64,000 nt of DNA from the human T2T-CHM13v2.0 reference genome, Homo sapiens. Position 1 is the stretch's first letter, and every line of letters starts with the position of its first letter. Location of the stretch: assembly GCF_009914755.1 (NCBI RefSeq), contig NC_060934.1; one strand, given 5' to 3'. Below the pieces are notes generated by a model. It did no database searches. It was not told the origin of the DNA and saw only the letters and a program-made list of their open reading frames with translations. Below are positions 5,676-37,388 of the stretch, one piece after another. The position numbers were made by a program, and so were the translations under genes.

Positions 5676-5699
5676 TTTTGCAATTGAACAATTGCAAAA
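5676..5699. promoter_or_regulatory. PLEKHS1: Perfect inverted repeat TTTTGCAATT-GAAC-AATTGCAAAA; known PLEKHS1 somatic mutation hotspot (G5686, C5689)
   Basis: 10-bp arms around a TGAACA core, read directly; matches the recurrent non-coding hotspot reported mainly in bladder cancer. Confidence 0.92.
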
Positions 5700-31215: not shown

Positions 31216-31503
<288 letters not shown>

Positions 31504-31708
31504 TGAGGTAATATGTGTAACGTGCTTACAAAGGTGACTGGCACATATTAGGTGCTCAATAAAGCTACTAGTTACTTTTACTTCTACTACAACTGACCAT
31601 GGAATGTTATTCAAGCCCATTTTTTAAAGCCTCAGTTTCATTATCTCAGAAATCGTCACAGCCCTAACTTCCTCATAGAATATTGCAAGAATTAAACATA
31701 ATATGTGG

Positions 31709-34470: not shown

Positions 34471-34650
34471 AAATTAAAGCTTACCATCGGCAGGATCCCA
34501 AATTCAGAGACATTCCATGCCGCATCCTGTATGTGTCCCTCAAAATGCCAAAGTGCTGCACCTTCTCAGCTGGATAAGCCTAGACTGAACAGAGCTCCCA
34601 AGAGGAGTCCGGCCATTAAAAAGAGCCAGCAGAAAGGAGCCAGGGAGTAA
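34471..34650 (+). CDS. PLEKHS1: PLEKHS1 last coding exon, KLKLTIGR...QQKGARE*
   Basis: Long pyrimidine tract plus ttttag acceptor; 59 codons then TAA at 34648-34650. Confidence 0.93.
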   Translation, partial: KLKLTIGRIPNSETFHAASCMCPSKCQSAAPSQLDKPRLNRAPKRSPAIKKSQQKGARE

Positions 34651-35051
34651 CGCACCCCAGACCCATGGCAGCAGAACCAGGATGGAGCTGGGACTGTCCA
34701 GCTCTGCCCCCTGCTGCTGCCATGTGATAGGAGACAGTCGGCACCCCCCTCTGAATTTCTGTATCTGCATCTTAACAATGGGGATGACTATCCCCTCTCT
34801 GGTTATTGTATCAGAGATGTTAAGAGGGTCATGTGGCATGATTGGAGAACCTGGGGGAATTGGAAGGCCTTATTATCTCAGCTATTGTCCCAAACACCAC
34901 AGACACAGATTGGGTCAGTCCTTCATGTAATACATGCTGTGTTCTGTGAGGATGTGGTCCACACAATTCCTTCTTTGTTAAGGGACATACAGTTGCAAAT
35001 ACTCACTGCAAGAAGGCAAGATTCCCAAGGGAGATGTGATAGCTGATCAGG

Positions 35052-35467
35052 CTTCCCAGACACCTCCTTCCCAAACACCTCCTTCCCAACACCTCCTTCC
35101 CCAACACCTCCTTCCCCAACACCTCCTTCCCCAACACTTCCTTCCCAACACCTCCTTCCCAAACCCCTCCTTCCCCAACATCCTTCCCAACACCTCCTTC
35201 CCAAACACCTCCTTCCCAAACACCTCCTTCCCAAACACCTCCTTCCCAACACCTCCTTCCCCAACACCTCCTTCCCAAACACCTCTTTCCCAAACACCTC
35301 CTTCCCAGACACCTCCTTCCCAACACCGCCTTCCCAACACCTCCTTCCCAAACCCCTTTCCCAAACACCTCCTTCCCCAACACCTCCTTCCCAACACCTG
35401 CTTCCCCCTTCCCCAACACCTCCTTCCCCAACACCTCCTTCCCAAACATCCCCTTCCCAAACACCTG
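35052..35467 (+). repeat. VNTR of about 28 units of 14-15 bp, CACCTCCTTCCC(C/A)AA, in the PLEKHS1 3' UTR
   Basis: Units counted by eye; variant units present (cccaa, ccccaa, cccaaa, cccaga). Confidence 0.95.
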
Positions 35468-36059
35468 CCTCTCTTCAACCCCACAGGCCAGAGTGCTGAG
35501 ACAGAGTGGCCTTTTGGATTCAATAAGTATCTTGTTCTCTTAAAGACTCAGCAACGATTTTAGAAGTCGCAGCAGTTTTACATCACATGCAGCCAAGATC
35601 AGCTTGCTCTACAAGCAATAACAGAACTACTTAGCACTTCAAGGTTGAAAGTTCTTCACTAATGGATCCATTGACTAATTGATCCTGGAAGGCCAAAGGA
35701 ATAAAATTCTTTTATATAAATAGGAAAACAAAGGCAGAGAGCTAAAGCACTAATCAAATCGGGGGGTGTTAGAGCAAAAACAGGCTTCAGAAAGAGTATT
35801 TTACCACGCTTCACATGGAAAAAATCGAGCCCCGGAGAGATGAAAGGCATATTTTCTTTGTTTCTCCAAGTTTCATAACCGTTCAGTTGCAGAACCAAGA
35901 ATCTAAAACCAGCTCTGGGAAACAAATGTCCAGATGCCAGCCTCATAGTTGAACTTGGATTTGAAAATACCTTCAGCACTTAGAAGAGACATTCAAATAC
36001 ATTTCATTTCCTGTTATCCAGATTGTTCGGAAAGTATTAAAAATTTTTCATTTACCTGC

Positions 36060-36460
36060 TGATACGGTTTGGATCTGTGTCCCTAACAAATCCCATGTCG
36101 AGCTGTGGTCCCCGGTGTTGGAGATGGAGCCTGGTGGGAGGCAGCTGGATCGTGAGGTCATGGGGGTGGAGTTCTCACGAAGGAGTTAGCATCATCCCCT
36201 TGGCGCTATTCTCGTGAGAGTAAGTTCTCGTGAGATCTGGTTGTTTAAAAGTGTGCAGCACCTCTCCGCTCACTCTCTTCCTCCTGCTCCTGCCGTGTAA
36301 GATGCCTGCTCCATCTGCCGCAAGTGAAAGCTTCCTGAGGTCTCCCCGGAAGCAGATGCTGCCACGCTTCCTGTACAGCCTGCAGAACTGTGGACCAATC
36401 AAACCTCTTTTCTTATAAATTACCTGGTCTTGGGGATTTCTTTATTTAATGTGAGAACGC
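36060..36460 (+). mobile_element. MaLR solo LTR (MST-like) in the 3' UTR
   Basis: TGATACGGTTTGGATCTGTGTCCC start; AAACCTCTTTTCTTATAAATTACC near the end. Confidence 0.85.
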
Positions 36461-36581
36461 ATGCCCTTTTGGATCTACTGTTTCTACTTTTATAAATTTA
36501 TCCTGCAGAAATACACAAATACACAAAGATACATGTAAAAAAAGTAGTTTACTGCAGTACTGTTTGTAATAATAAAAAATC

Positions 36582-36882
36582 AGGCTGGACGTGGTGGTTC
36601 ATGCCTATAATTCCAACCCTTTGGGAGGCCGGGACAGGTGGATCACCTGAGGTCTGAAGCTCGAGAACAACCTGACCAACATGGAGAAACCCTGTCTCTA
36701 CTAAAAATACAAAACTAGCTGGGCATTGTGGCACATGCCTGCAATCCCAGCTACTTGAGAGGCTGGGGCAGGAGAATCACTAGAACCGGGAGGCGGAAGT
36801 TGCAGTGAGCCAAGATCATGCCATTGCACTCCAGCCTGGGCAACAAGAGGAAAACCCAGTCTCAAAAAAACAAAAAAAAAAA
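36582..36882 (+). mobile_element. AluS (Sp/Sq-like)
   Basis: Full dimer, TSD aaaaaatca. Confidence 0.92.
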
Positions 36883-37036
36883 TCATGTGGGTATTGCTTA
36901 ATTCTGATTTCATATCACTGAACACTGTAGATATTAAAATGTTCAGCAGGCACAGTTCTGTAAAATTGTTCGTGATACATTAAGAATGAAAGAATCAAGT
37001 TGTATAATAAGGATAACATCATCCCACTTTTGTACA

Positions 37037-37042
37037 AATAAA
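37037..37042 (+). terminator. PLEKHS1: Candidate PLEKHS1 polyadenylation signal AATAAA (others at 35700 and 36571)
   Basis: TGTA just upstream and a GT-rich tract just downstream. Confidence 0.55.
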
Positions 37043-37388
37043 TGTTTGGTGTTTGTGTGTATGTATATGTGTATATCAAATTTCTTCAACCCTTACTAGA
37101 GTGAGAGGTCCGTACCTCCCAGGGCTACTGTGAGGTTTCCTTATAAGTACACTGCCTGATCAGGAGTAAACACTCCACAGGTGTTCTTTGTCCCACTGTT
37201 GCTCTACGTGCTTTTTTAAAAAATTAAAACTTAGAGTCAAATTTTTAGTAAAGAGTTATCTCTGAGAAATACGATCAGGGTTGGCCATGGGAAGAGAGGC
37301 ATTTCTGTAATGTTTGAATACTTTTTTTTGCAATGTGCATATGTCACTTTTATAATACAAAAATACAAGCGTGGGAATGTATATATAA

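What the first reader, a model, noticed from the sequence alone, without database searches (positions are those of the whole stretch)
35052..35467. 3' UTR VNTR resembles the 15-lipoxygenase DICE translational silencer
Seen: about 28 tandem units 400 nt after the stop codon and upstream of all candidate poly(A) signals; the RNA unit is CACCUCCUUCCCCAA. Established: rabbit 15-LOX DICE is a 3' UTR tandem array of CCCCRCCCUCUUCCCCAAG bound by hnRNP K and hnRNP E1/E2 (PCBP) to block translation. The unit matches the DICE core CACCCUCUUCCCCAA at 13 of 15 positions. Inference: a copy-number-tunable KH-protein platform controlling PLEKHS1 translation or stability.
Basis: partly seen in the sequence, partly recalled or inferred. 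Interest (0 to 1): 0.7.

Follow-up and report, generated by a model that had tools for sequence, protein, structure and literature searches.

The report
Length-variable C-rich repeat in PLEKHS1 mRNA
The tail of one PLEKHS1 mRNA form carries a C-rich repeat whose length differs between people and is already catalogued; it likely attracts C-binding proteins such as hnRNP K, but it resembles the lipoxygenase silencer only loosely and its length probably does little to PLEKHS1.

Summary
The array is real: 35052-35466, period 15, 27.9 copies, 402 nt after the stop codon, in unique sequence. It is a catalogued VNTR: 656 bp in GRCh38, 570 +/- 103 bp over 16 assemblies, about 416 bp here. The DICE likeness is weak. 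Only 6 of 28 units match 13/15, and 17,439 genomic sites match that well. The two mismatches destroy DICE's middle C-triplet, and C-patches are mostly 11-12 nt apart, against 1-4 in DICE and human ALOX15. Unrelated C-rich arrays match the 19-mer better. What holds up is generic: a predicted unpaired RNA with 32 C-patches and 30 UC3-4 hnRNP K motifs, so binding is likely but untested. In published GTEx data, length associates with CASP7 (10 of 14 rows) and an overlapping lncRNA (3 rows). PLEKHS1 has one row: testis, positive slope, q=0.0496. The locus is absent from the fine-mapped table (PIP >= 0.1), which points to linkage. Reported alleles carry far more patches than the three hnRNP K needs, so tuning by copy number is unlikely. 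Verdict: a known polymorphic minisatellite, probably an hnRNP K landing pad, not shown to be a DICE.

The parts
35052..35466 (+). C-rich minisatellite, 28 units of mostly 14-15 nt (commonest CACCTCCTTCCCAAA, 8 of 28); 231 C, 93 A, 87 T, 5 G; G-rich on the template strand
   Evidence: same locus as GRCh38 chr10:113781181-113781837 by coordinate offsets (numbers and the annotation)
35158..35176 (+). First of only three places with three C-patches spaced 2-6 nt (the alphaCP SELEX layout)
   Evidence: layout
35347..35362 (+). Second closely spaced triple C-patch
35441..35458 (+). Third closely spaced triple C-patch
34471..37061 (+). Distal last exon of PLEKHS1 (NM_001395068.1): coding to 34650, then a 2,411-nt 3' UTR that holds the array
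   Evidence: annotation
35700..35705 (+). First AATAAA after the array; weak downstream element
37037..37042 (+). AATAAA 19 nt before the annotated 3' end, with UGUA upstream and a GU-rich element downstream
31276..31589 (+). Exon of other transcripts with AATAAA at 31558; inferred alternative last exon, giving mRNAs without the array
   Evidence: annotation; (terminal status inferred from the signal's position)

Best explanation
This is a length-polymorphic, GC-rich minisatellite in unique 3' UTR sequence of PLEKHS1; its RNA is predicted to be single-stranded and likely binds hnRNP K (PCBP1/2 probably less well) through repeated UC3-4 patches, and its copy number likely has little effect on PLEKHS1. 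Shown: the array, its position, its unique flanks, its length variation and its motif content. Inferred: growth in place by ordinary minisatellite turnover; protein binding; saturation, because hnRNP K reaches full affinity with three C-patches while this short allele has 32; and that the published CASP7, lncRNA and PLEKHS1 associations arise because array length tags a regulatory haplotype around CASP7.
For: Polymorphic: 656 bp in GRCh38, 570.1 +/- 103.3 bp over 16 assemblies, VST 0.0000, eQTL False (Lu 2021 supplement); the coordinate offset jumps 231-242 bp across the array. Each flank hits only itself, and a unit dimer has 14 hits, all here. 36 other matches to C-rich arrays at 64-81% identity show that the composition is common. 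Unpaired: no pairs inside the isolated array; mean unpaired probability 0.83 in context, with 24 of 32 C-patches above 0.8. Repeated UC3-4 is the optimal KH3 site; three C-patches suffice for full hnRNP K affinity in the Xist B motif, and constraints relax in unstructured RNA. 13 of 14 length associations are with CASP7 or RP11-211N11.5, genes whose mRNAs lack the array. Other VNTRs nearby give CASP7 motif associations down to p=1e-34. The locus has 0 rows in the table of variants with PIP >= 0.1.
Against: A PLEKHS1 association does exist in testis (slope +0.21, p=1.9e-4, q=0.0496). The authors say their fine-mapping may undercount causal motifs, and short-read dosage is noisy. mRNA eQTLs cannot see translational control. 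Motif content does not always predict binding. The 13/15 match is reached by only 405 of 20,000 shuffles of the unit. No binding, reporter, protein-level or cross-species data were available, so 'little effect' is an inference.
Confidence: 0.58

Rival explanations
1. DICE-like silencer: hnRNP K and PCBP bound to the array would block 60S joining and keep PLEKHS1 mRNA untranslated until Src phosphorylates hnRNP K. Presence of the array, not its length, would matter.
For: Tandem 3' UTR layout and dense UC3-4 motifs. TAK1 mRNA is silenced through repeated UC3-4 motifs that DICE competes for. A 38-nt CURE stabilised a reporter mRNA while repressing its translation, which is compatible with a positive mRNA slope. 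Human ALOX15's own repeats also match the 19-mer at only 14/19 without gaps.
Against: One C-patch of three or more per unit, 23 of 31 gaps of 11-12 nt, no CCC-purine-CCC and no AAG; DICE and human ALOX15 have gaps of 1-4 nt. The match is common. C-rich elements also stabilise mRNA or enhance translation, so binding does not fix the outcome. The mouse prostate paper reports protein distribution broadly matching mRNA, though whether mouse has the array was not tested.
Confidence: 0.14
2. Weak copy-number-dependent mRNA stabiliser of the alpha-globin type: more units would recruit more PCBP/PABP and slow deadenylation, raising PLEKHS1 mRNA slightly.
For: Positive slope in testis. PCBP stabilisation through C-rich 3' UTR elements is established.
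Against: One tissue, q=0.0496, not fine-mapped, not an eQTL in the 2021 analysis. Only three sites have the close triple-patch layout PCBP prefers.
Confidence: 0.12
3. DNA-level element: the G-rich strand would form quadruplexes or bind transcription factors and repress CASP7 and its overlapping lncRNA about 50-100 kb away, more so when longer.
For: Consistent negative slopes for CASP7 in 10 tissues (best p=2.4e-12) and for the lncRNA in 3 (best p=5.4e-16). G4Hunter-type mean score -1.41; eight four-tract matches with loops up to 12 nt (my own implementation).
Against: Not fine-mapped; other VNTRs tag CASP7 as well or better; no canonical short-loop quadruplex; no RefSeq functional element is listed here.
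Confidence: 0.07
4. Inert passenger: the array is seldom in mature mRNA (the alternative last exon dominates) or is not bound in cells.
For: An inferred alternative last exon with AATAAA at 31558; C-rich regions are not always bound in vivo.
Against: The selected RefSeq transcript includes the array, and the distal acceptor has the better pyrimidine tract (0.77 against 0.43).
Confidence: 0.09

Closest known systems
VNTR locus 9631, GRCh38 chr10:113781181-113781837 (Lu et al. 2023, PMC10234305; Lu et al. 2021, PMC8275641)
   Same: The same locus, by coordinate offsets and by motif; listed as length-variable and as an eVNTR for CASP7, RP11-211N11.5 and PLEKHS1.
   Different: It appears only as supplement rows; I saw no mechanism proposed. 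The CHM13 allele is shorter and lacks the unit variant behind the lead lncRNA motif association.
15-lipoxygenase DICE (ten 19-nt CU-rich repeats; hnRNP K, hnRNP E1/E2)
   Same: Tandem C/U-rich 3' UTR array with UC3-4 motifs; 13/15 local match in 6 of 28 units.
   Different: 15-nt unit; one C-patch per unit instead of three; gaps of 11-12 nt instead of 1-4; no AAG ending; polymorphic; no binding or silencing shown.
CU-rich elements (CURE, alpha-complex sites; TAK1 3' UTR UC3-4 clusters)
   Same: Single-stranded C-patch clusters that recruit hnRNP K or PCBP.
   Different: Those were shown by binding and reporter assays; this one is predicted only, and it is a repeat array.
Xist B-repeat
   Same: Tandem C-patch array read by hnRNP K through multiple patches.
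   Different: Nuclear lncRNA, structured motif, silencing of chromatin.
GC-rich human minisatellites with the classic core (motif recalled)
   Same: The G-rich strand matches the recalled 10-base core with one mismatch at 22 places; the recalled PRDM9 13-mer matches with one mismatch at 13 places.
   Different: No perfect match to either motif; mutation rate not measured.

Membership tests
15-LOX DICE | Tandem CU-rich repeats in the 3' UTR, sense strand | tested here: met
   annotation
15-LOX DICE | 19-nt unit with three closely spaced C-patches (CCC-purine-CCC, then UCUUCCCC, then AAG) | tested here: not met
Period 15; CCC-purine-CCC 0, AAG 0, CCCUC-pyrimidine 1; 23 of 31 gaps 11-12 nt; best 14/19.
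15-LOX DICE | Similarity beyond that of generic C-rich sequence | tested here: inconclusive
   405 of 20,000 unit shuffles reach 13/15 (2%; commonest unit 963 of 20,000 for 12/15), but unit and core were chosen after the fact; 17,439 genomic sites against 12,974 for the reversed control; arrays L002 and L003 reach 15/19
15-LOX DICE | Bound by hnRNP K and hnRNP E1/E2 | not testable with these tools
   No eCLIP or binding data on hand
15-LOX DICE | Blocks 60S joining; released by Src phosphorylation of hnRNP K | not testable with these tools
   Mechanism; nothing for PLEKHS1
hnRNP K/PCBP C-rich element | Three or more C-patches; repeated UC3-4 | tested here: met
   32 C-patches, 30 UC3-4; criteria
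hnRNP K/PCBP C-rich element | Single-stranded presentation | tested here: met
   Prediction only:
hnRNP K/PCBP C-rich element | alphaCP optimum: three patches 2-6 nt apart | tested here: inconclusive
   Met at 3 places only when patches of three or more C are required
Human VNTR | Length varies between haplotypes | tested here: met
Causal eVNTR | Fine-mapped over neighbouring SNPs | tested here: not met
   0 rows in the PIP >= 0.1 table; a look-up in published results, not a new analysis

The most novel reading that the evidence does not exclude
The array is a recently grown hnRNP K-dependent translational brake on PLEKHS1 that Src releases. Src phosphorylates hnRNP K at Y458 and frees DICE mRNAs, and Src-family kinases also phosphorylate PLEKHS1 to drive PI3K. 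One kinase would then both switch on synthesis of the adaptor and activate it: a feed-forward loop, escaped by the alternative last exon and possibly set by allele length.
Probability: 0.07. Interest if true: 0.65.

Novelty: already known. Interest (0 to 1): 0.24.

Why it matters
As it most likely stands, little: a catalogued VNTR that tags the CASP7 haplotype, and a caution that C-rich minisatellites resemble DICE by composition. If the array does repress translation through hnRNP K, a minisatellite would have created a signal-released translational switch on a PI3K-activating adaptor linked to prostate and thyroid cancer, and mRNA eQTL studies would be blind to it. A reporter series settles this cheaply.

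Tried and rejected
Transposon or paralogue origin: each flank hits only itself; that search skips very common words. Structured RNA family: Rfam found nothing over 35052-35466 at E <= 1, only Alu-derived SRP-like hits at 36584-36865 and two weak matches. Hairpin in the array: z=0.32, no internal pairs. Hidden coding: frames are open only because the unit has no stop codon, and they give low-complexity peptides. Several recalled motifs (PCBP1, PCBP2, Y-box) each match 22-28 times, which shows that motif matching does not pick out one protein. Supplements without the gene or locus: PMC11701250 (4 files; gene names and id only), PMC8096271 (1 file held; gene names and id only), PMC13263140 (2 small files). 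Not held: Garg 2021 AJHG, Sulovari 2019, Ostareck-Lederer 1994 and 2002. No other vertebrate genome was available, so age and conservation are untested. Which PLEKHS1 C-terminus is conserved across mammals is also left open. The promoter palindrome was located, but the paper checked gave no coordinate for it, so CASP7 and lncRNA ends were used for the offsets.

Full report
OBSERVATION. Tandem Repeats Finder gives 35052-35466, period 15, 27.9 copies, 86% matches. An exon of other transcripts, 31276-31589, has AATAAA at 31558, so some mRNAs probably end before the array; this is inferred from the signal's position. Both flanks are unique in the genome, and a unit dimer with up to one mismatch has 14 hits, all inside the array.

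IT IS A KNOWN VNTR. The supplement of Lu et al. 2023 (PMC10234305; passages and supplement rows seen) lists locus 9631 at GRCh38 chr10:113781181-113781837. Offsets from the CASP7 and lncRNA ends put its start at window 35044-35055. The offset from the PLEKHS1 end puts its end at 35469, assuming GENCODE and RefSeq share that end. The offset jumps 231-242 bp across the array, about 16 units. Lu et al. 2021 (PMC8275641; passages and supplement rows) give reference length 656, assembly mean 570.1, SD 103.3, n 16, VST 0.0000, eQTL False. The CHM13 allele is therefore a short one.

HOW GOOD IS THE DICE MATCH? A review confirms DICE as a tenfold 19-nt CU-rich repeat bound by hnRNP K and PCBP1 that blocks 60S joining (PMC9701828, passages; mechanism also in PMC8034617 and PMC3615732, passages). 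13/15 holds for 6 of 28 units, and the best match to the whole 19-mer is 14/19. In fairness, the human ALOX15 3' UTR (identified by a lipoxygenase family hit and a recalled C-terminus) also reaches only 14/19 without gaps. The genome holds 17,439 sites at 13/15 or better, against 12,974 for the reversed control. Of three other C-rich arrays examined (four loci, from the 36 other matches), L002 and L003 match the 19-mer at 15/19 in 8 and 22 places, and the third array once at 15/19; their position relative to genes was not checked. The architecture differs. DICE has 15.8 C-patches per 100 nt with gaps of 1-4, the human ALOX15 segment 13.4 with gaps of 1-4, and this array 7.7 with 23 of 31 gaps at 11-12. 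CCC-purine-CCC and AAG are absent, and the two mismatches turn CCCUCU into CCUCCU, removing the middle triplet. It fails membership of DICE on unit structure.

WHAT IT WORKS LIKE. Repeated UC3-4 motifs are the optimal KH3 site, and they mediate hnRNP K binding to the TAK1 3' UTR, where loss of hnRNP K raises translation (PMC4024643, passages). The array has 30 such motifs and 32 C-patches; 1,206 other 416-nt windows on both strands have means of 1.9 and 4.1 and maxima of 10 and 15. It holds 30 of the 40 UC3-4 motifs of the UTR. It is predicted unpaired alone and largely so in context. In the Xist B motif hnRNP K needs three C-patches for full affinity and is more tolerant in unstructured RNA, although motif match does not always predict binding (PMC7498318, passages). 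PCBP prefers three patches 2-6 nt apart (PMC3367169, passages), a layout met at three places. Binding by hnRNP K is thus likely, and by PCBP less sure. The outcome of binding is open: such elements stabilise, repress, or both (PMC1475749, passages). Since three patches saturate affinity and a short allele has 32, a graded response over roughly 28-45 units is not expected; this is inference.

EXPRESSION DATA. All 14 length-association rows for the locus were read: CASP7 in 10 tissues (slopes -0.19 to -0.39, best p 2.4e-12), RP11-211N11.5 in 3 (best p 5.4e-16), PLEKHS1 in 1 (testis, +0.21, p 1.9e-4, q 0.0496). The motif table, which was cut when stored, has 4 rows, none for PLEKHS1. An RNA element cannot act in cis on CASP7 mRNA, which does not contain it. 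Other VNTRs near CASP7 give motif associations of 1e-34 and 3e-29, and the locus is absent from the table of variants with PIP >= 0.1. The authors state that most eVNTRs are linked to nearby eQTLs and that their causal count may be too low. Linkage is the simplest reading. None of this tests translation. Files I could not see (Data S1, the supplementary PDF, the cut part of Data S3, cut files of the 2021 paper) may hold allele sequences or further rows.

RIVALS. A length-independent DICE-like brake remains possible and is invisible to mRNA data. It would be notable because Src both releases hnRNP K and activates PLEKHS1 (bioRxiv 10.1101/2023.05.18.541123, passages; the term UTR does not occur in that text). 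A weak stabiliser fits the sign of the testis slope. A DNA-level repressor of CASP7 fits the negative slopes and the G-rich strand but has no fine-mapping support.

LITERATURE. PLEKHS1 with VNTR returned one paper, on bladder cancer genomes (listing only). CASP7 with VNTR and tandem repeat returned three unrelated reviews (listing). The first 40 of 240 PLEKHS1 papers listed concern expression, promoter mutations and signalling. A search for VNTR, UTR and KH-protein terms listed no paper on this locus among 20 of 55 shown. Course et al. 2021 (PMC8327921, passages) count 6 of 467 human-specific VNTRs in 3' UTRs and do not name PLEKHS1 in the main text; the supplement was not seen. So I found no RNA-level proposal for this array in these searches, but the locus itself is catalogued.

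VERDICT. A real, known, polymorphic minisatellite; probable hnRNP K landing pad; not a DICE by unit structure; no sound evidence that copy number tunes PLEKHS1. Interest 0.24.

Noticed in passing
window 34664-34725: A nested hairpin starting about 14 nt after the PLEKHS1 stop codon is kept in both the minimum-energy and the centroid fold; significance not tested.
   Followed up: no
window 5676-5699: Perfect palindromic arms in the first intron of PLEKHS1, matching the described cancer mutation hotspot hairpin.
   Followed up: partly
window 36584-36865: Sense-strand Alu-like element in the distal 3' UTR (two SRP-like Rfam hits), starting just after the AATAAA at 36571.
   Followed up: no
window 31276-31589: Probable alternative last exon that would change the PLEKHS1 C-terminus and drop the array; weak pyrimidine tract (0.43).
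   Followed up: partly
L002 (C5, near 174,999,340), L003 (C2, near 26,515,165), L005 (C20, near 61,168,671): Other C-rich minisatellites (periods 12, 24 and about 30) that match the DICE 19-mer better than this array; gene context unknown.
   Followed up: partly
L019 (C17, below 4,521,335, minus strand): The human ALOX15 3' UTR has about three degenerate DICE-type repeats followed by a CU tract, not ten tandem copies.
   Followed up: partly
window 35052-35466, other alleles: The motif behind the strongest lncRNA association (p=7e-27, testis) is absent from the CHM13 allele, so unit variants mark haplotypes.
   Followed up: partly
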